From sequence record PV730299.1: 64,000 nucleotides of DNA. One strand, 5' to 3'. Shown in pieces: positions 16,681-48,768 of this stretch. The translations under genes and the position numbers were made by a program. The first letter of the stretch is position 1; each line of letters starts with the position of its first letter. The stretch is from a phage. The notes under the pieces are model-generated. The model was not told where the DNA came from and did no database searches. It was given only the letters and a program-made list of their open reading frames with translations.

Positions 16681-17385
16681 CTATTTCTTCTTATGCATAC
16701 GACGTGCATCTTTCCACACAGACATCTGGCTCTGTTTCTGGAAGCGGGCAGTGCGCATGAAGAGAACGATCTCCCAGTACTGTGGCTCAATCTCGTAAAG
16801 CTGTGAACGGAACTGATCGGCGCGGTACAGCTTCACACAGTGATTGTACAGCGGATGGTTGGCGAAGCGCTTCAGGGCTTCCCAGGTGAGCTTCAGACGC
16901 GTCTTTGAGCGGTATGCCCGTTCGTTACGCAACTTGATCAGATCCTCAAACACCAACAGCCTGAGCTTCGGTGGCAGGTAGTGCATGTTGAGCCCCCAGA
17001 GGTATGTCACACCCTTCTCTCCAAAGGTGATACCATCACCCTTGACAAAGTTGAAGAAGAACACCAGAGGGTACATATCCCAGTAGGGTAGTTCATTCTT
17101 CGTCAGAGCATCATATTTGAAATAGAACATACGCCCGACTATATACCGCACACCTTGTACCGGACGTTTGTGATCAGCAAACGCCTGTTTCATATGGTTG
17201 GGGCTCAGGTTGGCGTCCTTAGACACACGCTCCATGAACCACACATGCGAACGGCGGATGTTACGCTTCGCCTCTGGACCGAAGTGTTGACGGTACTTGC
17301 GGATGTAACGCTTGACCAGCTCGGGGGCGTCCATCTCGGCCGGAAACAGCAACGGATCTTCTTCGCCAGCTGCATTCTTTGCCAT
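16681..17385 (-). CDS. hypothetical protein
   Basis: 234-aa ORF, basic C-terminus; GGAG RBS. Confidence 0.45.
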   Translation of the reverse strand: MAKNAAGEEDPLLFPAEMDAPELVKRYIRKYRQHFGPEAKRNIRRSHVWFMERVSKDANLSPNHMKQAFADHKRPVQGVRYIVGRMFYFKYDALTKNELPYWDMYPLVFFFNFVKGDGITFGEKGVTYLWGLNMHYLPPKLRLLVFEDLIKLRNERAYRSKTRLKLTWEALKRFANHPLYNHCVKLYRADQFRSQLYEIEPQYWEIVLFMRTARFQKQSQMSVWKDARRMHKKK

Positions 17386-17396
17386 TTGTCAACTCC

Positions 17397-17404
17397 TATA
17401 AATA
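17397..17404 (+). promoter_or_regulatory. T4-type late promoter-like box TATAAATA
   Basis: Exact TATAAATA 34 nt upstream of GTG start of gp54-like gene. Confidence 0.45.
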
Positions 17405-17438
17405 ATAACAGTTATTTTATTTAAGTGGAGTCCTCACC

Positions 17439-18383
17439 GTGGAAGACTATCGCAATTTTATCACACAGATATTACAGCGGGGCTTGTCGCGCAAGAACCG
17501 CTTCAGAGTGACCATCCCTCTACCACCAGGGATCTTTGACTCCAATGCCACTCTGGCTAATGACGGAAAGGCGTACAGAACCAATTCATCTTTTGGTGAC
17601 TTGTTTAAGCAGTCAGCCCGTATTGTAAACGCTTTCTTTGGAGGGACAAACCAGACGTCCCGTTCCCTTCAGATGATGTGTATGGTTGCCTCATTGCCAG
17701 GGGTTGGTATCGACACCACTCCAATGACAAACAACGGTAATCACATCAAGATGCCGAACAACAAGTCCAACGTCGACCTCGACTTGTCATTCTTATTAGC
17801 CAATGACTATTATGAGAAGTCTGTGATGGACAAGTGGAAGAGTCTGATCTTTGATCCACACACCACCAAAATGGGATATTACGAAGACTTCGTGACTGAC
17901 ATATGCATTGAACAGCTTGACACCGAAGATCAAGTGGTCCACCGCGTCTACATCGTCGAGGCTCACCCAATAAATTTCAGTTCTATTGAGCTGGATAAAG
18001 GCGCCACAGACCAGTTCAACCAATACAACATTTCTTTCTCTTACAATAAAGTGCTTTCGGAGACAGAATATGAAACACGCAGCCTTTCCAGCGATTTTCT
18101 TCCTCTCGGCATTGCTGACGCTCTTACCAGTGGTGACTGGGAAACTGCGGCCTCAAAAGCTGGACAGCTTTATCGCAAGGTGAAAGAAGGGAACTTCACA
18201 GGAGAGGCTCTCCTGGCTTACAAACAGCTTGACCAACTTGTAAACAACCTGGCTGGGATAAGCATACAGGACTTCGAGCGCATCTCGGTAGGTATCTCTC
18301 GTGACATCATGGGTAACGATAACCTGACGGCGGCGGAGAAGACAAGCCTGTTGGGAATATTACAAGACGTGATGGGGAAATAA
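17439..18383 (+). CDS. tail tube-family protein (gp19/gp54-like, baseplate tube initiator candidate)
   Basis: 314 aa; N-terminal RKNRFRVTI and CMVASLPGVGIDT...WKS pattern matching T4 gp19/gp48/gp54 tube fold; GTG start with GGAG RBS; TATAAATA box 34 nt upstream. Confidence 0.6.
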   Translation: MEDYRNFITQILQRGLSRKNRFRVTIPLPPGIFDSNATLANDGKAYRTNSSFGDLFKQSARIVNAFFGGTNQTSRSLQMMCMVASLPGVGIDTTPMTNNGNHIKMPNNKSNVDLDLSFLLANDYYEKSVMDKWKSLIFDPHTTKMGYYEDFVTDICIEQLDTEDQVVHRVYIVEAHPINFSSIELDKGATDQFNQYNISFSYNKVLSETEYETRSLSSDFLPLGIADALTSGDWETAASKAGQLYRKVKEGNFTGEALLAYKQLDQLVNNLAGISIQDFERISVGISRDIMGNDNLTAAEKTSLLGILQDVMGK

Positions 18384-21682: not shown

Positions 21683-22190
21683 TACTTTTCTCCAGTTCAT
21701 AATCGCGCTCCACAACGTATTGGTAGACACGCATCTTAATATAGTCAGCACTGCCTGCTGAAGACAGTACCATCCATCCACTACTAAGGGCATTCATCTT
21801 ATATTGACCAACACCCTCTTGAAAATAACTTTTAATCTGTTCCAGCTTTCGCCCACGATGATAATACGAGATGAGTTCGCCGATGACAATACAATCTGGA
21901 TAATGCTTTTCCAATGTATTGATGTTGCGGTGAACATATACGGGTAGAACTTCTTCATCGTCGATAGGGCTGTAGTATGGGTCTACGATGACCACTTGTA
22001 GACCATAACGCAGCAGGTCTTTGACACCCAGCCGACAGAACTTATAATCTTCGTGTTTCATTGCCACATGGAGGATATTCTCTTTCTTGGCATAATCGGT
22101 CAGGAAGATAAAGAAGTCTGTGTTGGGATCGGGATATTGTATAGACAGTTCTTTGCCTATTTCACTAAAACAAAATCCGCGCATTTTCAT
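21660..22190 (-). CDS. hypothetical protein
   Basis: 176-aa ORF; no motif recognised. Confidence 0.4.
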   Translation of the reverse strand: MKMRGFCFSEIGKELSIQYPDPNTDFFIFLTDYAKKENILHVAMKHEDYKFCRLGVKDLLRYGLQVVIVDPYYSPIDDEEVLPVYVHRNINTLEKHYPDCIVIGELISYYHRGRKLEQIKSYFQEGVGQYKMNALSSGWMVLSSAGSADYIKMRVYQYVVERDYELEKSNAKRKTR

Positions 22191-22197
22191 TCCTCGT

Positions 22198-22205
22198 TAT
22201 AATTA
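22198..22205 (+). promoter_or_regulatory. late promoter-like box, variant TATAATTA (or sigma70 -10)
   Basis: 28 nt upstream of ATG at 22234. Confidence 0.25.
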
Positions 22206-22233
22206 CTCTTACAATATACCGTGGAGATACATT

Positions 22234-23040
22234 ATGAATTTACCATCATTGCCCAGAACAGAAAAGACATATAAAAGCGACTTTTGGCCTACTGTGATCA
22301 AATATCGCGCCTTTACTGCGGGGCAACAAACTTTATTACTTCAGGTGTCAGATCCGCAAACGCCGATTGAAGAACGCGCGGCCATGATGGAGAGTCTCTT
22401 TAGCGAGTGTGTAAATGCAGGCGCACCTTTCAGTAAACTGCCAATCGGCGTTGTTGAGGAAGTGTTCATCCGCATGCGCATGATCTCCATCGGTGAATTG
22501 ATGAAGATTCGTTATAAGTGCAATAATCAGATTGAAGAAACGATCGATCTGGGAGATGGTCAAGAAAAGCACCAGATGGTTCCCTGTGAGCAGGAACTGA
22601 CTCTACCTATCCCGTTGAACAATGTCAAATGCATTGCTCAGGACGGCTTCCGGGAAACATTTGACCTGCCAGGTGGATATCACCTCAAGATGCGCCAACC
22701 TTCCTTCTCGGACGCTACGGCACTGTCTGATGCTGCAAGTGTTGAGATGATGCTGGCCACCTTTATCGACTGTCTGTACGATGATGACGGTCAGGTGTGG
22801 AAGGTTGAGAATCCTGAAGAAATCGGAATCACTCCAGAAGAGGCTACTGAGCGCCGCCGTGTGAAAGAAGCGTTTGTTGAGTGGGTGAAGGATAACATCG
22901 AATCAGATGTTATTGACAGCATTACGAAGAACTTCTTCCACAAAATACCGCGCATCCACTACAAGAGTTCGATCAAGTGTCCGAAATGTGGTAAGGAGCA
23001 CAAAATCGAATTCAATAGTATTAATGAAATTTTCATTTAA
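22234..23040 (+). CDS. hypothetical protein with C-terminal zinc ribbon (possible baseplate-associated)
   Basis: Start moved to MNLPSL (GGAG RBS); C-terminal CPKCGKEH; first gene of plus-strand block ending with gp5-like and gp25-like genes. Confidence 0.45.
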   Translation: MNLPSLPRTEKTYKSDFWPTVIKYRAFTAGQQTLLLQVSDPQTPIEERAAMMESLFSECVNAGAPFSKLPIGVVEEVFIRMRMISIGELMKIRYKCNNQIEETIDLGDGQEKHQMVPCEQELTLPIPLNNVKCIAQDGFRETFDLPGGYHLKMRQPSFSDATALSDAASVEMMLATFIDCLYDDDGQVWKVENPEEIGITPEEATERRRVKEAFVEWVKDNIESDVIDSITKNFFHKIPRIHYKSSIKCPKCGKEHKIEFNSINEIFI

Positions 23041-34871: not shown

Positions 34872-35441
34872 CTAGACAGGCTTAACACCGAGGAACTTGG
34901 CAATGTCAGCAGCCAGGTTTTTACCCTTGCTGATGTCGTGTTCTTTACCGCCGACAGTAACGATCACATACGGGTCATCTTCACCACCGAAGTTCACGGT
35001 GATCGCCTTGCCGATGCCAGGGATGCCAGAGTATTCGAACTCAGTGCGACCACTCTTGCGAGACTTGCCAGCACCCAGTGCTTTACCGATCATCTTGTCC
35101 ATGTTCGCCAGTTCCTGAGCATAGGATTCGGTCACTTGGCCTTTGTTGGCAGACTTGCCAAAGAAGAATTCGAAGCCGTCATGGACAGCAACGACTTCCT
35201 GACCTTGGGAGATACCGTGAGTCTGGTCTGGGGTCAGCTTCACCTTGATGGTGTTGCCGTTGGTTAACTCCAGGTTGTAGACATCCGCCTGATTGTCAGG
35301 GGTGATCTGGGTCACGGTAGCGCCGGAACACCACTGGGTGCCGTCAGCTTGCTTGGTGATGGATACGGTCTTACCTTGGACACCAGCGTGGGTCTGAGGT
35401 TTAGCGGCTTGTTCTTTAAAATATTCGATAAAAGGTTTCAT
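34872..35441 (-). CDS. hypothetical protein, probable late/structural gene
   Basis: 189 aa; GAGGAG RBS; TATAAATA box about 25 nt upstream of ATG. Confidence 0.45.
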   Translation of the reverse strand: MKPFIEYFKEQAAKPQTHAGVQGKTVSITKQADGTQWCSGATVTQITPDNQADVYNLELTNGNTIKVKLTPDQTHGISQGQEVVAVHDGFEFFFGKSANKGQVTESYAQELANMDKMIGKALGAGKSRKSGRTEFEYSGIPGIGKAITVNFGGEDDPYVIVTVGGKEHDISKGKNLAADIAKFLGVKPV

Positions 35442-35466
35442 TGGATCTCTCCTCGGGGATTTAAGT

Positions 35467-35474
35467 TATTTATA
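35467..35474 (-). promoter_or_regulatory. T4-type late promoter-like box TATAAATA
   Basis: Exact TATAAATA on minus strand about 25 nt upstream of ATG at 35441, immediately after terminator hairpin of the 986-aa gene. Confidence 0.45.
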
Positions 35475-35498: not shown

Positions 35499-38459
35499 TC
35501 AGATCTTAATCTGCATGTTGCCACCCAGGGACTGCTCGTACTCGCTGTATGCGCCTTCCCCGTAGTCTCGTGCCCACTGGTCAGACTGCTGGGCACTATC
35601 CAGAGTCATCAGGTTTGGTTCAGTCGGGTTGTAACCCTTGGACTTCGCATCCCGGTACAGAGTCTGCAGGTACTGGTTGGCGCGGTCAATCTGAGCTTTG
35701 AACTCGCGATATGCCCCTTCAGTTGTGTTGCGGCGGAAGGTGATATCCCAGTCCACGTTCAGAGTCTGACCATCACGGCTTGCATAGATCTGCCAATCCA
35801 GGTCGCGACCTTTTGGTGCGTTGTCGCGGATGGAGTCGGCGTATGCCGCAAGGTCGTCCTTCGGATTGTGCGACGTGCTTTTCAGAAGTAGTGCATGACC
35901 CATACCACCGTTTGACTGAAGAGACCATTTTCCTGTTTCTCTTCCCAGGCGTTCTATGTTGTTGAGTTGGTTTATCGACAATTCAGAAGAGTCAAATAAT
36001 ACCACATCACGTTTTTTGGGGGTTCTCACATAAGGGGTGAGATCAATGTCGATCATCCGGTTTATAAATTCTACCACTTCAGCTTGTTTCTTTGGCAATG
36101 TGGTATTGATATCCGGCGTGTTTGCTACTTTCTCCAGGCGTTTGTTTTCTGCGCTTATCATGGATAGCATAATTTGTGTAACTTTGCCGTCAGACAAGTT
36201 GTAATCATTCCAAATCACTTCACCTTTATCCGTGATGGTTATATCGTTCAAGAACACCTGGTTTGGGTTGTATGACTGACTTTTCAACTGTTGGAGGTTT
36301 CTGGAAAGATATTCCATTTTTGATGAAATCTCATCAATCACACTCTGGACCATATCTTTGTTTAAAGGAAGTTCATATGTCTTTGGATTGTTCAGGGTAC
36401 GCCCTTTCTGAGAGACAATTGGGGTGAATGCAACTTTACCTTTGTCGTAGTAATAGGTCACGTTGGTTATCATAGAAGCACCGGCGTATTTTCCCGTTTC
36501 GGGGAAATTGACATCCCACCGAATGGACATACCGTTGACAGTCTCACCAAACACCATGGCGTTGCGTGGCATCTTCAGGGTTCCAGAGTTGACCAGATCA
36601 TCGCCTTGGGCATTCAGGTCGATAGAACCATAGATGGCCCCGGTAATACGATCTTTCAGCATCAGGGTCTTGTCGCCCTTCTCTGGGATGATTTCCAGCG
36701 GGTGCTTGCCACGCGGAGGCTCTTTGATGAGTTCCAGCAGAGCAGTGTTCCCAGGCTTCACACGATTCAGGACAGCGTCTGACACTGTCAGAGTCCAGTT
36801 TGCGGTTTCTACATAACCCCAGCCCCGAGAACGGCGAATGGCTTTGATAGGGTATGGAGCGCTTGTTGGCACTGCGCTAATTTCCCATTTCCCAGTGTAC
36901 TGGGTCTTGGCAACCTCAAAGATGGACGCAATTACCGCATTGGCGACGTCACGGGCGCTGCCTTTGGCCACGTTCTCCTCTTCAGCAATTTCGCTGAAAA
37001 CTGAGTATTGAATGAAACCAGCGAGGACGTTTGTGAAGTTGACAACGATAACCAACCCGCCTGCCGTCGTGTAACGACCAGCGCCCACACGACGGATGTT
37101 CTCACCAGGAAGAATAGAAGTGTCCAGCCCAACGTTGGTATCAATGATACCCAGAACACGAGCGATGAAACCGCTGTCACGTAATTGATCAACACTGGTT
37201 GCACCCTCGGTCGAATCCGATGCGGATTTAGACACTTTGTTCAACTTGATAGAGACAAGGGTTTCCCCGTTGACACCGATGATATCCCATTCAGTACCCT
37301 GCTCGTTCGAGATGCGGGCAATCTTGCGCTTTGAATTGATGGCACCTTCGTAACGCCCGTTTTTGACCACAACAGAGGCAGTGGCAGCATCAGTCGCACT
37401 TGCTGCATTTGAAAAGTCTGGGTCGGAAATACTGATGTCGACGTCACCGTTTTGAGAACGCATGCGAACACCGTTTTTGAATCGTTCCACGTTTACTTCT
37501 CGAGCACCAAGTCGTTTGGCATCAATAACAGCAGTTCCAGAACCGATAATGTTGGCTGGGTTATTTCTGTCTGAACTGTTTTGAGAACCTTTCCAAAATT
37601 TTGTGGACGCCGTGGTGAAATCATTCAGGATACTGATAGGGACTTGCGGTAATTTCAACTGACGAGCAATGAAATCAGCACTTTGCCCACGCACAGGTTT
37701 CTCATTCATGTATGCGCCAACATACACACCCGGCTCATTGTAGTGGGGAGCGATATTTGCCGTGTTCATGCGGCCTCTCTCCTTACCAGCCCATAACAAC
37801 ATGGGCTGATCCCCGTTTGAAGTCAATTTCCATCCGTTGGAATTATCAGCAGAAGATGACACACCCACATCCGGAGTATTGTTCTGAACCGGAACGTCAC
37901 CGACCTTGTCTGGATCATCCCAGGTGATACCCTGCATCTTCGGACCGTCGAATACCTGAGCCGGATCTTTACCCTTGCGGACCAGCCACACATAACCACG
38001 GTCAGGGACAGGCGCGTAGGTCAGGTCCATGACATTCAGTTTCTGTTTCAGGCCGGACTGGCGGATGATCTTAGGAATCAGGGTCATACCGCGATCCAGC
38101 GCTTTCTTAGAGAAGTTGACAGCAAAGCCATCGATGGTCTTGCCCAGAGGAGTCGCCATGAATTGTTTGGTCGCTTCGATCATGGAAGCGATAACGCGCA
38201 TTGGGTTCTTGAAGCGAGCGATGGCGTCAGGATAGACGGAGCCGCGCTTCTGGCCGATGAAAACCTGACGAACGCTCTTGCCCAGCCCCTGAGGGGTATA
38301 GAACTGAATACGGTATTCCTTTTCATCTTCGTCGATGAAGGTGAAGAACACATCGCCTGCGTTCTTCTTACCCATGGTCAGCTCATACGGAGCGGAGTTG
38401 AACGCTTCGTCCAACTGATCTCTTTCCTGCATGAACTGGAGGAAACTTAGCTTTGACAT
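35499..38459 (-). CDS. large hypothetical protein (986 aa)
   Basis: Long uninterrupted ORF with AGGAG RBS; no polymerase, ATPase or nuclease motifs recognised; hairpin terminator downstream. Confidence 0.55.
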   Translation of the reverse strand: MSKLSFLQFMQERDQLDEAFNSAPYELTMGKKNAGDVFFTFIDEDEKEYRIQFYTPQGLGKSVRQVFIGQKRGSVYPDAIARFKNPMRVIASMIEATKQFMATPLGKTIDGFAVNFSKKALDRGMTLIPKIIRQSGLKQKLNVMDLTYAPVPDRGYVWLVRKGKDPAQVFDGPKMQGITWDDPDKVGDVPVQNNTPDVGVSSSADNSNGWKLTSNGDQPMLLWAGKERGRMNTANIAPHYNEPGVYVGAYMNEKPVRGQSADFIARQLKLPQVPISILNDFTTASTKFWKGSQNSSDRNNPANIIGSGTAVIDAKRLGAREVNVERFKNGVRMRSQNGDVDISISDPDFSNAASATDAATASVVVKNGRYEGAINSKRKIARISNEQGTEWDIIGVNGETLVSIKLNKVSKSASDSTEGATSVDQLRDSGFIARVLGIIDTNVGLDTSILPGENIRRVGAGRYTTAGGLVIVVNFTNVLAGFIQYSVFSEIAEEENVAKGSARDVANAVIASIFEVAKTQYTGKWEISAVPTSAPYPIKAIRRSRGWGYVETANWTLTVSDAVLNRVKPGNTALLELIKEPPRGKHPLEIIPEKGDKTLMLKDRITGAIYGSIDLNAQGDDLVNSGTLKMPRNAMVFGETVNGMSIRWDVNFPETGKYAGASMITNVTYYYDKGKVAFTPIVSQKGRTLNNPKTYELPLNKDMVQSVIDEISSKMEYLSRNLQQLKSQSYNPNQVFLNDITITDKGEVIWNDYNLSDGKVTQIMLSMISAENKRLEKVANTPDINTTLPKKQAEVVEFINRMIDIDLTPYVRTPKKRDVVLFDSSELSINQLNNIERLGRETGKWSLQSNGGMGHALLLKSTSHNPKDDLAAYADSIRDNAPKGRDLDWQIYASRDGQTLNVDWDITFRRNTTEGAYREFKAQIDRANQYLQTLYRDAKSKGYNPTEPNLMTLDSAQQSDQWARDYGEGAYSEYEQSLGGNMQIKI

Positions 38460-43729: not shown

Positions 43730-44837
43730 CCAGTTTGTTCAGGCGTTGTTGGGCAGCATTATAGAAGTGCTCTGCTAGTTTACAGACATTGTCGGGGCGC
43801 TGAATGTTGTTCCCTGCGCGGATATCCTTCTTCAGGACTTCCACCGCATCGGTCGCCACCATCTCTTCGGTGACCTCAACCTTCTCGGCAGCAACAGTAA
43901 TCGTCCGGTCGATGAAGTTGTAGTCAATACACTTGCATCGCTTCATGGCATCACAGAACTTTTCATAATGCTTAGCATTGTCGCGGTTCTGTACAATAAC
44001 CTTAACGATTTGCCCTTCAATACCCAAGCCTGTGTTCAACCATTCCGGGTCGATCCAATTACCTTCTTCATCAGAGGACAACTTGGTGTAATCATATTCC
44101 ACATAGCGGAACAGCGTCTGGTGCTCGGCGTTCGGGATAAAGATCTCACCACCACGCATGTCGTCCACATAGAAGCCACGGTTAGTGCCGTCTTTGTAGT
44201 CTTCCCAGTTCAGGTGATACGGAGTCCCAATATATTGAATGTTACCTTCCATCGAACGGGTATGGAAATGCCCCGTGTCGACCCTGGTAAACTTGGAAAG
44301 CAGAGCAACGTCGATCTGACCGTGATCACAAGTAGAAGACTGGTACATTTTGAACCCCGCCAGCTCCAGATGCGCAAAACAGTACTCGGCGTCTGTATCT
44401 TGTATCGCTTTAATAGACGCATCATAGTTCTCCTTGTTGATCCAAGGCAGCAGCAGAGTCTTGACACCCTCGATCATCACTTCGGTCGGTTCGCTGTAAT
44501 AGCAGTACACATCCGGGTCGAGTTCGTTCAGGTAGGATGGCCAGTTGATGCGGTTGGACTCTTCCAGGGTGATATCATGGTTACCCACGATGCCATTCCA
44601 CTTGATACCAGCCGCTTTCAACGCAGGGGTGAGTTCATCCTTCAGCCAGTCTTTGTCACGACCGTACATGAATTTGCGGACATCAAACGTATCACCGAAC
44701 TGCCAGACCTCTTTGATATCAGAGTCGACAAGTTCAGGAATGAAATAATTGATGAGATAGTTCTTGATGAAGTCGCGAACGTATCGAGAACCATTACGGC
44801 TCCCGATATGCAGATCGCCAATTTTAGCAATCGCCAT
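43722..44837 (-). CDS. SbcD/Mre11-like nuclease (T4 gp47-like)
   Basis: 371 aa; calcineurin-like phosphoesterase motifs GDLHIG and GNHD; 8-nt overlap with SbcC-like gene. Confidence 0.85.
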   Translation of the reverse strand: MAIAKIGDLHIGSRNGSRYVRDFIKNYLINYFIPELVDSDIKEVWQFGDTFDVRKFMYGRDKDWLKDELTPALKAAGIKWNGIVGNHDITLEESNRINWPSYLNELDPDVYCYYSEPTEVMIEGVKTLLLPWINKENYDASIKAIQDTDAEYCFAHLELAGFKMYQSSTCDHGQIDVALLSKFTRVDTGHFHTRSMEGNIQYIGTPYHLNWEDYKDGTNRGFYVDDMRGGEIFIPNAEHQTLFRYVEYDYTKLSSDEEGNWIDPEWLNTGLGIEGQIVKVIVQNRDNAKHYEKFCDAMKRCKCIDYNFIDRTITVAAEKVEVTEEMVATDAVEVLKKDIRAGNNIQRPDNVCKLAEHFYNAAQQRLNKLDA

Positions 44838-45615
44838 TATTCTGTTTCTCCCGTTCTTCTAATCTTTGTTTGAGGGCTTCCCAATCTGGTTCCATCGCAC
44901 AGATATTATCTTCCAGATTGAATTGGGTTTTGCCGAAGTCCTGATCTGAATTGTCTTCGGCCTGCGCTGTTACCGTATTCTTAGCCTGCGCCATGTATTG
45001 AAGTATGCCTTTCGCAATCTTTTTATTCGATTCTGCGAGACGAGCTGCCTCCACCTTCTCTCGTTCCTTCTGCCTTTGAGCGTCCTTTTTGTTCTCAAAG
45101 TTGCCGATACGTTCACGGAAGTCCATGCCAATTCCTGTAGCATCAACAAAGATCTCTTGTTGGAAGTCGGGATCGTCTGCCAGGCCTGCGAACCCACCCG
45201 CCTCTTCAAATGAGCGCAATTTGATGTACGTATGTTCTTCTTCGATATTCAGTTTACGAGCAAATGAGCGATCCGCACACATGGTCACCCAAGAAAAGAA
45301 GTTGATCTTCCCTTTCTTTCCAATATGGTCGACGTCAAAGGTGTGGAGGTAACGCAGGATGTTGACGATTGCTTCAGAGACCATGTCTTCACGGAAGGGA
45401 TAATCGCGATAGTTGTAGCGGGTACTCATCTTGGTGATGATGCGCTGGACCTGCAGAGCAACATAGTTGGGGATCTTTGGAAGCCTGGTGCCCTCAGCAA
45501 GTGCTTTCTTGCGAGCAGGGATCCAATCACGAAGGATACTAATGACACGCTCGTTGTCTTCGTCCGTGAAATATTTGACGACATTCTCCCCTCTGTCCAC
45601 GAAGTTCATTCCCAT
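44824..45615 (-). CDS. late-transcription sigma factor candidate (T4 gp55-like)
   Basis: 263 aa; N-terminal region resembles T4 gp55 as recalled; lies upstream of the SbcD/SbcC-like pair as gene 55 lies near 47/46 in T4; TATAAATA boxes present in window. Confidence 0.45.
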   Translation of the reverse strand: MGMNFVDRGENVVKYFTDEDNERVISILRDWIPARKKALAEGTRLPKIPNYVALQVQRIITKMSTRYNYRDYPFREDMVSEAIVNILRYLHTFDVDHIGKKGKINFFSWVTMCADRSFARKLNIEEEHTYIKLRSFEEAGGFAGLADDPDFQQEIFVDATGIGMDFRERIGNFENKKDAQRQKEREKVEAARLAESNKKIAKGILQYMAQAKNTVTAQAEDNSDQDFGKTQFNLEDNICAMEPDWEALKQRLEEREKQNNGDC

Positions 45616-45626
45616 TATGATAGCCC

Positions 45627-46154
45627 TCAGATACCGATAAATTCATCAAAAGATCCAACAACCTTCTTCACCGAGATATTGTCATTCTCAATCAGGAAGT
45701 TGCTGTCGTTTTTGGCTGCTGTAGCCCAGTCATCGGCAAGTTCGTTGCCTTCGTGTCCCGCATGACCCTTAACCCATTTTAGTTCAACATCACAAATTGA
45801 ACAAACGAGATCATAGATTCTGAACAGATCTTTGATGAGTTCAACGTTCTTTTCTGGGAACCCCTGATACTCCCACTTCGTTCGCCATTCGGTGACACTC
45901 TTGATGGCATATTGGCTGTCAGACCAAATTGTTGCCTTTGGTATTCTGCGCTCACCCTTTCCTGAGAATGCCCACAGTAGCTTCAATGCGTTGGTCACAC
46001 CCAACAACTCGGCGATGTTGTTAGTGGACGGGGGAGGTAGATGACCGAAGAACACCTTCCATTGCATACCCGTTATTGGCCTGATGACAAATGCCCAGCC
46101 TGCGGCCTGGTTGGTCTTCGGGTTAGAACCCCCGTCAGAATAAATTTCTATCAT
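45627..46154 (-). CDS. ribonuclease H (RNase HI-like)
   Basis: Start at MIEIYSDGG; RNase H catalytic blocks YSDGGS, NNIAELLGV, IWSDSQYAI, GHAGHEGNELAD. Confidence 0.85.
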   Translation of the reverse strand: MIEIYSDGGSNPKTNQAAGWAFVIRPITGMQWKVFFGHLPPPSTNNIAELLGVTNALKLLWAFSGKGERRIPKATIWSDSQYAIKSVTEWRTKWEYQGFPEKNVELIKDLFRIYDLVCSICDVELKWVKGHAGHEGNELADDWATAAKNDSNFLIENDNISVKKVVGSFDEFIGI

Positions 46155-46156
46155 GA

Positions 46157-46164
46157 TATAAATA
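46157..46164 (+). promoter_or_regulatory. T4-type late promoter-like box TATAAATA
   Basis: Exact TATAAATA 35 nt upstream of ATG at 46200; overlaps RNase H start region on opposite strand. Confidence 0.45.
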
Positions 46165-46199
46165 TCCCAAACTGGTTTTATAGAAAGAGGAATGAAACT

Positions 46200-46967
46200 A
46201 TGGCACCCCGCGCATATCGTTTCAGTCTCACCGCCCCGCAGATTGAGCAATTGCTCCTCTCTATCTATGATGCTATCAAGTCAGAAGATATCATCTATGA
46301 TTATGCTGCAGGTGGGACTGCTGGACAAGTCGCAGCAGCGTCTGCTGTCAAGAACATGTGGTTGAAGCTCAACGAGATGGTGACAGGCCAAGGTCTCAAA
46401 GATGCCATCAACGATGCAGAAGACAGCAACGTGTTCACCGACTATTATAAGTCTTTACTGGATCGCGAAGGCTGGAAATTTATTGGATCTCCAGCAGATG
46501 AACTTCAGCGAGGCGACATCGATACTTCGAACTTCAAAGGTGGTGAGGTCATTCTACTTCAGAAGAACGCTTCGGGCAACCCAGAATTCCAATACTGGAA
46601 GCGAACCCCTGTTGCTGGGGGTGATCCTACCTTTGCATGGGCTTCGGTCTATGAAGGGAACTCCAATGATTCCAGCATAGAGATTCCCGTGGTTGGCACC
46701 AGCGTACTCAAGGACATCCCCAAGGCACTCTTCCATATGATCGAGTTCAGAGTGCATGTGTACGATGAGACACTGGGTCATTGGCAAGACACCGACGGGA
46801 AGGTGGGGTATCGTGGCGAGGATCTGATCTACAGTGTATACAACCATATTCAGACCAAACCTCTCGCCACCATTGACTTCAGCCAAGATACGGACAATAT
46901 GACGGTTTCTGTGACGTCGTTGGAACCGAATGTCAAGTGCCATCTGTCCTTCGTTGCGGGTTACTAA
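46200..46967 (+). CDS. hypothetical protein, probable late gene
   Basis: Start at MAPRAY (AGAGGAA RBS); TATAAATA box 35 nt upstream; plus-strand gene between minus-strand RNase H and helicase genes. Confidence 0.5.
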   Translation: MAPRAYRFSLTAPQIEQLLLSIYDAIKSEDIIYDYAAGGTAGQVAAASAVKNMWLKLNEMVTGQGLKDAINDAEDSNVFTDYYKSLLDREGWKFIGSPADELQRGDIDTSNFKGGEVILLQKNASGNPEFQYWKRTPVAGGDPTFAWASVYEGNSNDSSIEIPVVGTSVLKDIPKALFHMIEFRVHVYDETLGHWQDTDGKVGYRGEDLIYSVYNHIQTKPLATIDFSQDTDNMTVSVTSLEPNVKCHLSFVAGY

Positions 46968-48682
46968 ACCTCAAACACGGCATCAGTGAACCAAGCGGGG
47001 AAGAACTCTGGGTTGCGCATCATCAGTGATTCAAAAGAAGAATCAAGGATGTACGTCGCAGCCCAGTCATTCACGCCCCTGACCGAACGCCCACACATCT
47101 GAACGATACGCAGTACCGCCATCCTGAAGTACGCCGATGGGTCCACACTGTTGACGTGGGCCACCAGAGGATCACCAAGGTAATCGTATGGCACCTTGAT
47201 CAAGATCTGAAATCGACTATAATCGCCTTTGAAGTCATACCCCTCTTCCATGGCCGGACTGGCGATGACACAAGGCGTCTTCGTCCTGAACGCGTGTTCC
47301 ATGATGTCCATCAGAGCCTTACGAGTACGAGGAACGTGAATCATATTCCGGTACTTACTGAACTTTTGTAGAGCCAGGGCGCGGTCATAACTGACTGTGT
47401 GAATGATGCCAGACTGCCCAGGGTGGAACGCGATAATTTCATCCACGTATTCAGCCAGCTTCTTCATCTCGTAGTCGCCCATGTTCGCTGTCATCTTCAT
47501 GATGGGCATGTAGTTGACTTTCCGGTTCTCAATCGGGATAGGGTTGCCGATCTGTATCTTGTGGTACTCACCCTCGCGGATACCCAGTGACCGGGCGTAC
47601 GAGTCAATCCCACAAATGGTAGCCGACATGTGAACGTGGTAGTCACCCTTGCGGAACAGGCCGAACTGGGATACATCAGAGGCGATGACAGGCTTGAACT
47701 GAATCATGCCCTTGTCCTTCTCCTGTACGATGAAAGTGCTGGCGTTGGTCTGCCCCATGATACCACAGTAGTCGCTGAGGTTGTGAAGATTATCAATAAT
47801 ATCAGACAGCTTCATCACCTGGGCTTCAGTCAGGCGCTCATCCTCTACCAGTTCCTCAAGAGTTTCCAACAGGGCTTCAACCTTGCCGTGTAGTTCATCA
47901 AATATCGCATGCATCTCACCAGACAGGGAATACAGCTTGCCCAATTCATAGTTCTCTGTGCGGGTGATGATATCCTTGATGGTCTCCACGATAGGCACTC
48001 CCTCGGGGATCGTAAGCAACCCTTCCACAGCCTTTATGTTGTATTCCATGATCGTGTGCTCTAGGAGCGTAGAGGGCATTTTATGACACTCGTCAAGGAT
48101 CAGCATATCGGCACGGTTTTCCGGCTTCATACAAATCGTCGTACACATCTCCACCATCATGGCGGCGTTGGTGCAGCGCAGGGAGGAGACGTCGGTCCAC
48201 TGTCTACGCGCCTGAACATATGGGCAACGATTCTTACTACAGTGGCCATCACGGCATGCCATACGACACTGAATGGCGTTGTAGTATAGGTCGGGACTGA
48301 TGTGGCAACGATAGTTCTTCTTGCCCTTCAGGATGTCTATCGCCACGGCTTTCTCTGCTGCATACTGATCCTGTAAACCTTTGGTCGGCGTCGTGATAGA
48401 CGTGCGGAACTGACCATACGGGTTGTGCTCAAGAACCAAATGGCGAAGCACGTTATGGATGGTAGTGCCGATGAGGGATTTACCTACACCAGTCGGAGCC
48501 TCGATGATCACGTGTTTGAATTTCTTATTCACAAGGGCATCAATGGCTTCAACGATGCATTCCATCTGGCCGGGGTTGGCGGTGTCATACGGGAAGAACT
48601 CAGTGGCAAGAGACTTGATGCGGTCTATGCTGACTGGTCCGACGCCGTTAAGCGCCTTGGTATATTGGTTGAATGCTGTCAC
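46964..48682 (-). CDS. DinG/XPD-like Fe-S DNA helicase
   Basis: 572 aa; Walker A EAPTGVGKS, DEAH-like LILDECH, Cys cluster (CRMACRDGHCSKNRCP) between them. Confidence 0.7.
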   Translation of the reverse strand: MTAFNQYTKALNGVGPVSIDRIKSLATEFFPYDTANPGQMECIVEAIDALVNKKFKHVIIEAPTGVGKSLIGTTIHNVLRHLVLEHNPYGQFRTSITTPTKGLQDQYAAEKAVAIDILKGKKNYRCHISPDLYYNAIQCRMACRDGHCSKNRCPYVQARRQWTDVSSLRCTNAAMMVEMCTTICMKPENRADMLILDECHKMPSTLLEHTIMEYNIKAVEGLLTIPEGVPIVETIKDIITRTENYELGKLYSLSGEMHAIFDELHGKVEALLETLEELVEDERLTEAQVMKLSDIIDNLHNLSDYCGIMGQTNASTFIVQEKDKGMIQFKPVIASDVSQFGLFRKGDYHVHMSATICGIDSYARSLGIREGEYHKIQIGNPIPIENRKVNYMPIMKMTANMGDYEMKKLAEYVDEIIAFHPGQSGIIHTVSYDRALALQKFSKYRNMIHVPRTRKALMDIMEHAFRTKTPCVIASPAMEEGYDFKGDYSRFQILIKVPYDYLGDPLVAHVNSVDPSAYFRMAVLRIVQMCGRSVRGVNDWAATYILDSSFESLMMRNPEFFPAWFTDAVFEV

Positions 48683-48731
48683 TTTCTTCCTCCTATGGGA
48701 TTCGCCTTTAGTTTACCCGATCCCCAAGAAC

Positions 48732-48768
48732 GAAAAAGCCGGAGCATTGTACTCCGGCTTTCTCTTTG
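48732..48768. terminator. rho-independent terminator downstream of HU gene (bidirectional potential)
   Basis: 8-bp stem AGCCGGAG/CTCCGGCT, loop cattgta, T-runs on both sides. Confidence 0.7.

What the first reader, a model, noticed from the sequence alone, without database searches (positions are those of the whole stretch)
46152..46967. Late-promoter gene embedded antisense between RNase H and helicase, with promoter overlapping the RNase H start
The plus-strand 255-aa gene (46200..46967) sits between two minus-strand early-type genes. Its TATAAATA box overlaps the RNase H initiation codon on the opposite strand (46152-46154), and its 3' end overlaps the helicase stop by 4 nt. This geometry could give temporal antisense interference on RNase H or helicase expression.
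Basis: seen in the sequence. Interest (0 to 1): 0.45.

Follow-up and report, generated by a model that had tools for sequence, protein, structure and literature searches.

The report
Late virion gene, gp9-like, in Ackermannviridae
This is an ordinary T4-style late gene with its own late promoter, sitting on the opposite strand inside a block of replication genes of a ViI-like (Ackermannviridae) phage; the layout is already annotated in relatives, and the only new point is that its virion protein is a distant relative of T4 baseplate protein gp9, which this phage family was thought to lack.

Summary
The window is an Agtrevirus-like Ackermannviridae genome, 99% identical to Escherichia phage LHE287. 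The ORF (46200-46967, 255 aa), its ribosome-binding site, the TATAAATA box and the 4-nt overlap with the helicase stop are all real. The box lies at 46157-46164. It does not overlap the RNase H ATG (46152-46154) but sits 2 nt from it, in the spacer between the RNase H ribosome-binding site and its ATG. The predicted late transcript starts near 46170 and runs away from RNase H.

The Dickeya phage LIMEstone1 record already annotates this site as a putative late promoter. Its 92%-identical ORF093 is a mass-spectrometry-confirmed virion protein. The same tight packing occurs at two other divergent junctions in the window and at T4 genes 4/53. The geometry is therefore generic compaction, not a special device. 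Antisense or collision effects remain possible, because no terminator separates the opposed units, but they are untested.

New here: profile and fold comparisons show that the C-terminal domain is homologous to that of T4 gp9 (hhalign E 2e-8; PDB hmmsearch E 6.5e-6; top Foldseek hit). A 2024 review states that Ackermannviridae lack gp9-gp11. Low interest for the original claim, modest for the gp9 link.

The parts
46157..46164 (+). T4-type late promoter box TATAAATA (gp55-dependent class), taken as -13 to -6
   Evidence: Exact match, one of only 3 in the window. Annotated as 'putative late promoter' at the identical position in LIMEstone1 HE600015. Conserved in place, or as a one-mismatch variant, across genera.
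46170..46170 (+). Predicted late transcription start, giving a 30-nt leader. Inferred, not mapped.
   Evidence: Position 6 nt after the last base of the box, using the -13 to -6 numbering in PMC2988020. Sequence.
46185..46191 (+). Ribosome-binding site AAGAGGA of the 255-aa gene, 8 nt before the ATG
   Evidence: Sequence. GAGGA is conserved in all relatives.
46200..46967 (+). Late gene for a 255-aa virion structural protein (PHROG 3833, no Pfam match)
   Evidence: ORF. phrog_3833 E 4e-160. 92% identical to LIMEstone1 ORF093, found in virions with 8 peptides and 41% coverage.
46395..46463 (+). Residues 66-88 (LKDAINDAEDSNVFTDYYKSLLD): the most conserved motif. It recurs 4-9 times in long tail-fibre proteins.
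   Evidence: Repeated stretches in P0208, P0211, P0215, P0218, P0221 and P0223. These carry Phage_T7_tail or Peptidase_S74 domains.
46635..46961 (+). C-terminal beta-sandwich domain (about residues 146-254), homologous to the C-terminal domain of T4 gp9
45627..46154 (-). RNase HI gene. Its ATG is the complement of 46152-46154. Its weak ribosome-binding site UGGGA is the complement of 46165-46169, so the late box forms its spacer.
   Evidence: Pfam RNase_H E 5e-25 from residue 3. Sequence.
44824..45615 (-). gp55-like late sigma factor gene, 11 nt downstream of RNase H and so probably co-transcribed with it
   Evidence: phrog_234 E 6e-52. Coordinates.
46964..48682 (-). DinG/Rad3-type helicase gene, convergent with the late gene. 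The stop codons interlock (CTAA), giving a 4-nt overlap at 46964-46967.
   Evidence: Pfam Helicase_C_2 and DEAD, phrog_2488 E 1e-259. Sequence.
48736..48768 (.). Bidirectional intrinsic terminator hairpin (AAGCCGGAG-CATTGTA-CTCCGGCTT) with T-rich tails on both strands. It is the first credible stop for the + strand late transcript.
   Evidence: Own hairpin scan. Sequence. Annotated as a terminator in LIMEstone1.

Best explanation
This is a standard T4-type late transcription unit in an Ackermannviridae genome.

- After replication starts, host RNA polymerase carrying the phage gp55 sigma factor (encoded 540 bp away on the other strand) should recognise the TATAAATA box at 46157-46164. It should initiate near 46170 and transcribe the 255-aa gene rightwards. 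These steps are inferred.
- The product is a virion structural protein. This is shown for the 92%-identical LIMEstone1 ortholog.
- Its C-terminal domain is homologous to the C-terminal domain of T4 baseplate protein gp9. Its N-terminal part is helical and carries a tail-fibre-type motif. This is shown by profile and fold comparison.
- It is therefore most likely a trimeric adaptor at the tail or baseplate periphery. This is inferred.
- The gene's place on the opposite strand inside an early/middle operon, and the promoter pressed against the neighbour's start codon, reflect the conserved, compact T4-like genome layout. They do not indicate a dedicated antisense switch.
For: - The window is 99% identical to Escherichia phage LHE287 and belongs to the Agtrevirus group of Ackermannviridae.
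- gp55 is encoded in the window, and a gp33 homolog is annotated in the 99%-identical relative. The Ag3 paper reports gp55, gp33 and gp45 homologs for this phage group (PMC3121705).
- All 3 exact TATAAATA in the window lie 25-35 nt upstream of genes whose LIMEstone1 orthologs are confirmed virion proteins.
- The LIMEstone1 record marks the same site as a putative late promoter and ORF093 as a confirmed structural protein. Table 2 of PMC3296691 gives 28.3 kDa, 40.8% coverage and 8 peptides.
- The box and the gene order are conserved in Kuttervirus, Limestonevirus, Taipeivirus, Miltonvirus and Vibrio-infecting genera. Gene order also holds in a relative with 30% protein identity.
- In Vibrio phage Kuja the homolog sits directly upstream of, and on the same strand as, a baseplate wedge gene.
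- The same packing is seen at two other junctions in the window and at T4 genes 4/53.
- In T4, both strands are known to be transcribed at different times at several sites (PMC2988020).
Against: - No transcript start has been mapped in any Ackermannviridae phage that I could find. The CBA120 paper states that the late recognition sequence of this family had not been identified.
- Kuttervirus carries TATAAGTA rather than the consensus. A distant relative has no recognisable box.
- The bases just downstream of the box (TCCCAAAC) are not notably A/T-rich, unlike typical T4 late promoters.
- For gp9: Pfam T4_gp9_10 does not match. Only the C-terminal domain is significantly similar. The N-terminal half of the model has low confidence. 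The location in the virion is not known.
Confidence: 0.85

Rival explanations
1. The head-to-head promoter and start-codon arrangement, and the tail-to-tail overlap, are selected because late transcription from 46157 shuts down RNase H and helicase late in infection. The same would apply to the downstream gp55-gp47-gp46 genes. The mechanism would be antisense RNA pairing or polymerase collision.
For: - No terminator separates the opposed units. The + strand has none until 48736, and the minus strand has none between the helicase stop and RNase H.
- I found no convincing sigma-70 promoter for RNase H inside the antisense of the gene, so read-through across it is plausible.
- The box next to the RNase H start is conserved across genera.
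- The 4-nt overlap with the convergent gene recurs in many relatives.
Against: - The late RNA starts beyond the RNase H ribosome-binding site and runs away from it, so it cannot pair with the RNase H coding region.
- The same packing occurs at unrelated junctions in the window and in T4, which points to compaction.
- The helicase overlap is lost in phage 3M, and another gene intervenes in the Vibrio phages.
- There is no excess synonymous constraint at the 3' overlap.
- By analogy with T4, early and middle transcription declines anyway at late times. This rests on established knowledge and was not tested here.
Confidence: 0.12
2. The TATAAATA is only an A/T-rich translation spacer of RNase H, and the 255-aa gene is expressed from some other promoter.
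For: - The box lies exactly between the RNase H ribosome-binding site and its ATG, which could by itself explain its conservation.
- Kuttervirus has a non-consensus TATAAGTA.
- A distant relative lacks the box.
Against: - All 3 exact boxes in the window precede virion genes at the spacing typical of T4 late promoters.
- One-mismatch boxes precede gp26 and gp5 in the same way.
- No alternative + strand promoter stands out.
Confidence: 0.05
3. The protein shares only a common beta-sandwich module with gp9 and is not a baseplate adaptor. It could instead be a short fibre, the 'prong' seen on these phages, or a neck or head decoration.
For: - The N-terminal motif is a tail-fibre repeat.
- Some relatives keep the N-terminal 140 residues but have different, longer C-termini, as receptor-binding proteins do.
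- The fold also matches the N-terminal anchor domains of podophage tailspikes.
- The composition of the prongs is unknown (PMC11721090).
Against: - T4 gp9 is the best and only specific match among T4 tail proteins.
- The Kuja homolog is adjacent to a baseplate wedge gene.
Confidence: 0.3

Closest known systems
LIMEstone1 ORF093 with its annotated putative late promoter (GenBank HE600015; Adriaenssens et al. 2012, PMC3296691)
   Same: Orthologous locus. The intergenic sequence is identical from the RNase H start to the ORF start. The protein is 92% identical. The neighbours are the same, as is the 4-nt overlap with the helicase. The product was confirmed in virions by mass spectrometry.
   Different: Different host and genus (Limestonevirus versus an Agtrevirus-like phage). 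The record calls the protein 'unknown structural protein' and makes no link to gp9.
Bacteriophage T4 late promoters at divergent gene junctions, for example genes 4 and 53
   Same: An 8-bp TATAAATA sits about 30 nt upstream of a virion gene and about 10 nt from the start codon of the divergent gene. The promoter class depends on gp55, gp33 and gp45. [quoted passage not shown]
   Different: In T4 that junction joins two late genes. Here the divergent neighbour is a replication-type gene (RNase HI) followed by gp55 itself. The promoter has not been mapped experimentally in this family.
T4 gp9, the baseplate wedge tail-fibre connector (PDB 1qex, 1s2e; Pfam PF07880 and PF23618)
   Same: The C-terminal beta-sandwich domain is homologous. 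The overall order is similar: helical N-terminus, short beta region, C-terminal sandwich. The size is similar (255 versus 288 aa). Both are virion components.
   Different: There is no Pfam match. The middle (XD1) domain is not demonstrably present. The N-terminus carries a tail-fibre repeat motif. The gene lies far from the baseplate cluster. Ackermannviridae have tailspikes rather than long tail fibres, so the binding partner must differ.

Membership tests
T4-type gp55-dependent late promoter | 8-bp TATAAATA element with no -35 requirement | tested here: met
   Exact match at 46157-46164.
T4-type gp55-dependent late promoter | The phage encodes gp55, gp33 and a sliding clamp (gp45) | tested here: met
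   gp55 is in the window (phrog_234). gp33 is annotated in the 99%-identical relative. All three are reported for Ag3 (PMC3121705). gp45 is not in this window.
T4-type gp55-dependent late promoter | Placed a short distance upstream of a late (virion) gene | tested here: met
   The box ends 35 nt before the ATG. The ortholog is a confirmed virion protein.
T4-type gp55-dependent late promoter | A/T-rich segment immediately downstream of the box | tested here: inconclusive
   46165-46172 is TCCCAAAC, 4 of 8 A/T. The criterion comes from PMC2988020.
T4-type gp55-dependent late promoter | Late-time, replication-coupled, gp55-dependent 5' end in vivo | not testable with these tools
   No transcript data for Ackermannviridae were found.
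T4 gp9 family (baseplate tail-fibre connector) | Homologous C-terminal domain | tested here: met
   hhalign E 2.3e-8, probability 95%. hmmsearch against PDB E 6.5e-6. Foldseek E 1.9e-7. Only gp9 hits among 13 T4 tail proteins.
T4 gp9 family (baseplate tail-fibre connector) | Match to Pfam PF07880 (T4_gp9_10) or PF23618 | tested here: not met
   No such match for any of 25 family members, even at E up to 10.
T4 gp9 family (baseplate tail-fibre connector) | N-terminal coiled coil plus middle XD1 beta domain | tested here: inconclusive
   Helices are predicted at 12-86, but pLDDT is below 55. The full-length collinear hhalign alignment is weak: E 0.0026, probability 11%.
T4 gp9 family (baseplate tail-fibre connector) | Virion component located at the baseplate periphery, trimeric, binding a fibre | not testable with these tools
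   Presence in the virion is shown for the ortholog. Location and oligomeric state are unknown. The Kuja homolog's position next to a baseplate wedge gene is suggestive.
cis-antisense or transcriptional-interference regulatory pair | Overlapping opposed transcripts that exist at the same time | not testable with these tools
   Only inferred, from the absence of terminators.
cis-antisense or transcriptional-interference regulatory pair | Geometry specific to the regulated pair and conserved beyond what coding requires | tested here: not met
   The same packing is found at other junctions and in T4. The helicase overlap is lost in 3M and interrupted in Vibrio phages. Synonymous variation at the 3' overlap equals the gene average.

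The most novel reading that the evidence does not exclude
The late promoter fires head-on into the read-through transcription that supplies RNase H and, 11 nt further on, the late sigma factor gp55, followed by gp47 and gp46. Late transcription would then throttle production of its own sigma factor, acting as a built-in negative feedback or timer. The evidence allows this: no terminator or clear promoter insulates the units, and the arrangement is conserved down to relatives with 30% protein identity. Nothing shows it, however.
Probability: 0.08. Interest if true: 0.55.

Novelty: new member of a known kind. Interest (0 to 1): 0.25.

Why it matters
The promoter and gene geometry does not matter much. 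It is the normal compact T4-like layout and is already annotated in a related genome.

The useful by-product concerns virion architecture. Ackermannviridae are described as lacking the peripheral baseplate proteins gp9-gp11 (PMC11721090). How their branched tailspike complex and their 'prongs' are seated on the baseplate is still open. A conserved virion protein of the family with a gp9-type C-terminal domain is a concrete candidate for that adaptor. It could be targeted in cryo-EM maps or by deletion and complementation. It also lets hundreds of 'hypothetical protein' entries (PHROG 3833) receive a functional label.

Tried and rejected
- **Single-sequence searches.** Pfam and PDB phmmer found nothing for the 255-aa protein.
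- **Narrow family profile.** Against PDB it gave only spurious OspC hits. Against gp9 it gave only a weak score, E 0.0026. The link became significant only after adding distant representatives.
- **Structure prediction.** The accepted model has a poorly defined N-terminal half.
- **Second homolog search.** Searching with the profile added only two sequences.
- **Promoter and terminator scans.** The sigma-70 promoter scan around the locus was no better than shuffled sequence. The built-in terminator scan found nothing. My own more permissive scan found only the hairpin at 48736.
- **Literature searches for transcript or structural data.** I found no Ackermannviridae transcriptome or mapped late promoters, and no baseplate cryo-EM.
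- **Alternative start at 46041.** I considered and rejected the upstream ATG at 46041 (308 aa, as annotated in phage ChubbyThor). It precedes the promoter, overlaps RNase H, and is not the conserved N-terminus.
- **Hidden minus-strand promoter.** I tested for one through synonymous-site conservation. There is a dip at codons 76-97, but no convincing promoter there.

Full report
**What the window is.** The region 45600-48700 is 99% identical to Escherichia phage LHE287 and to other Agtrevirus-like members of the Ackermannviridae (ViI-like phages). It matches 246 phage records in all. The annotated relative shows almost every gene of the window on the minus strand. A few + strand islands encode baseplate proteins (gp54; gp26-gp5-gp25) and the gene in question.

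**Checking the observation.**
- The + strand ORF runs from ATG 46200 to TAA 46965-46967 (255 aa). Its ribosome-binding site AAGAGGA lies 8 nt upstream.
- RNase HI (Pfam RNase_H, E 5e-25) occupies 45627-46154 on the minus strand. A DinG/Rad3-like helicase occupies 46964-48682 on the minus strand.
- The two convergent stop codons interlock (CTAA), which gives the reported 4-nt overlap.
- The TATAAATA box is at 46157-46164. It does not overlap the RNase H ATG (complement of 46152-46154). It begins 2 nt beyond it.
- Read on the minus strand, the box is the A/U-rich spacer between a weak ribosome-binding site (UGGGA) and the RNase H AUG.

**Is the box more than chance?**
- Exact TATAAATA occurs 3 times in the window, against 0.67 expected.
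- All three lie 25-35 nt upstream of a same-strand start codon: gp54 (17439), a 189-aa gene (35441, minus strand) and this gene.
- The LIMEstone1 orthologs of all three (ORF50, ORF080, ORF093) are virion proteins confirmed by mass spectrometry.
- One-mismatch boxes precede gp26 and gp5 at the same spacing.
- About 86 genes are annotated in the window. Only roughly 2% of strand-specific positions lie in such a window upstream of a start codon, so three out of three by chance is very unlikely. This is my rough estimate.
- The phage encodes the gp55 late sigma factor in the window, and gp33 is annotated in the near-identical relative.

**Already annotated elsewhere.**
- The GenBank record of Dickeya phage LIMEstone1 marks the same site as a 'putative late promoter'. 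The intergenic sequence there is identical from the RNase H start to the ORF start.
- The same record labels ORF093 (92% identical protein) as a 'confirmed structural protein'.
- The paper reports it at 28.3 kDa with 40.8% coverage and 8 unique peptides (PMC3296691).
- The gene order is gp46-gp47-gp55-RNase H (leftward), this gene (rightward), then helicase (leftward). It is kept in Kuttervirus, Limestonevirus, Taipeivirus, Miltonvirus and Vibrio-infecting genera. It is also kept in a metagenomic relative with only 30% protein identity.
- The box stays within 0-3 nt of the RNase H start, or shares one base with it in L030 and L031. Variants are TATAAGTA in Kuttervirus and TCTAAATA or ACTAAATA in Vibrio phages.

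**How it most likely works.**
- In T4 the box spans -13 to -6 (PMC2988020). That places the start of the late RNA near 46170, giving a 30-nt leader. This is inferred, not mapped.
- The late RNA therefore begins beyond the RNase H ribosome-binding site and runs away from RNase H. It cannot pair with the RNase H coding sequence.
- On the + strand I find no credible intrinsic terminator until the bidirectional hairpin at 48736-48760, just beyond the helicase start. On the minus strand there is none between the helicase stop and RNase H.
- No convincing sigma-70 promoter for RNase H lies within the antisense of the gene.
- Two inferences follow. Late RNA may run antisense through the whole helicase gene. 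Early or middle RNA may read through the antisense of the late gene to reach RNase H, gp55, gp47 and gp46.

**Is the geometry a special regulatory device?** The evidence says probably not.
- Two other divergent junctions in the window (gp2|gp54 and orf176|gp26) place a late box 7-11 nt from the other gene's ATG, against its ribosome-binding site. T4 genes 4|53 do the same.
- The helicase overlap is absent in Serratia phage 3M. In two Vibrio phages an extra gene intervenes.
- Synonymous variation at the overlapping 3' end equals the gene average.
- I found no Ackermannviridae transcriptome in the paper library, so interference can be neither shown nor excluded.
- The most novel reading left open is that head-on late transcription limits the supply of gp55 itself.

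**What the protein is.**
- It has no Pfam match and belongs to PHROG 3833, 'unknown function'.
- An AlphaFold model built from 23 family members is confident only in the C-terminal beta-sandwich, with pLDDT about 76-95 (mostly >=86) over residues 161-250.
- Foldseek against PDB ranks T4 gp9 (1qex) first, at E 1.9e-7.
- A narrow family profile aligned with the gp9 family only weakly, though collinearly over the full length (E 0.0026).
- An exhaustive HMM search added distant representatives: 70 at E <= 1e-3. With those, a 47-sequence profile matched the gp9 family at probability 95% and E 2.3e-8, aligning residues 159-254 with gp9 residues 178-281.
- The same profile found T4 gp9 as the only significant PDB sequence, at E 6.5e-6.
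- As a control, the profile was compared with 13 T4 baseplate, fibre and neck proteins. Only gp9 scored (P 3.4e-5); all others were at 0.095 or above.
- The N-terminal part is helical. Its most conserved motif (residues 66-88) recurs 4-9 times in long proteins that carry T7-tail-fibre or endosialidase-chaperone domains.
- In Vibrio phage Kuja the homolog lies directly upstream of, and on the same strand as, a baseplate wedge gene.
- I conclude that the C-terminal domain is a gp9-type domain (high confidence). I also conclude that the protein is a peripheral tail or baseplate adaptor (moderate confidence). Its location and partners are not known.

**Comparison with what is known.**
- A 2024 review states that Ackermannviridae baseplates lack the peripheral proteins gp9-gp11, and that the composition of the prong-like structures is unknown (PMC11721090).
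- Previous gp9 similarities in this family concern the XD1 domain of tailspike TSP4, not this protein (PMC8825819 and PMC8432352).
- No solved structure of a close homolog exists in the PDB copy, and I found no baseplate cryo-EM study.
- The gp9 link thus appears to be unrecognised. It is, however, a new member of a known kind and not a new kind of system.

**Verdict.**
- The sequence features are real, with one correction about the promoter position.
- The interpretation as a late-promoter gene is right and already known.
- The proposed antisense regulation is possible but generic and unsupported.
- Interest is low for the original claim. It is raised modestly by identifying the product as a gp9-related virion protein.

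Noticed in passing
window 34872-35474 (minus strand): An exact TATAAATA (35467-35474, minus strand) sits directly after a GC-rich hairpin (gaaagccccttcgggggctt) and 25 nt before a 189-aa gene (PHROG 4048, unknown function). The LIMEstone1 ortholog ORF080 is a confirmed virion protein with an annotated late promoter. The terminator and late promoter are fused back to back.
   Followed up: partly
window 17383-17441 and 22188-22236: The divergent junctions gp2|gp54 and orf176|gp26 are only 53 and 43 nt long. Each carries a late box (TATAAATA at 17397, TATAATTA at 22198) 7-11 nt from the leftward gene's ATG and abutting its ribosome-binding site. The gp2 side also has CTTAAATA on the minus strand.
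   Followed up: partly
window 46425-46490: Synonymous-site variation across 26 orthologs drops to about half the gene average at codons 76-97. This stretch encodes the tail-fibre-like motif DSNVFTDYYKSLLD and contains a perfect TATAAT on the minus strand (46449-46444) with no recognisable -35. Whether it hides a minus-strand promoter for RNase H and gp55, or only reflects codon and peptide constraint, is unresolved.
   Followed up: partly
P0197, P0212, P0220, P0227: Some distant relatives keep the N-terminal 140 or so residues but are 400-630 aa long with unrelated C-termini. This pattern of conserved anchor and variable distal part is typical of receptor-binding proteins.
   Followed up: no
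L010 2336-4860 (Vibrio phage Kuja): In Kuja the homolog has moved out of the RNase H/helicase slot. It lies next to a baseplate wedge gene and a head-closure gene, on the same strand as both, with the clamp gene divergent upstream.
   Followed up: partly
L036 4740-4790: In a relative with 30% protein identity, the gap between the called RNase H start (GTG) and the gene is only 12 nt and contains no TATAAATA. Either the RNase H start is miscalled or that lineage uses a different late promoter placed inside the RNase H gene.
   Followed up: no
window 46041-46199; L009 2486-2622: Annotation inconsistencies in public records. Shigella phage ChubbyThor starts this gene at the upstream ATG (308 aa, overlapping RNase H). 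Vibrio phage K444 extends RNase H by 137 nt into this gene. Both look like start-codon miscalls.
   Followed up: partly
window 35499-38459 (minus strand): A 986-aa ORF (PHROG 3867) has a short internal-head-protein-like stretch at residues 790-844. It is shorter than the 1124-aa gene at the same place in the otherwise 99%-identical LHE287, so this locus is variable between close relatives.
   Followed up: no
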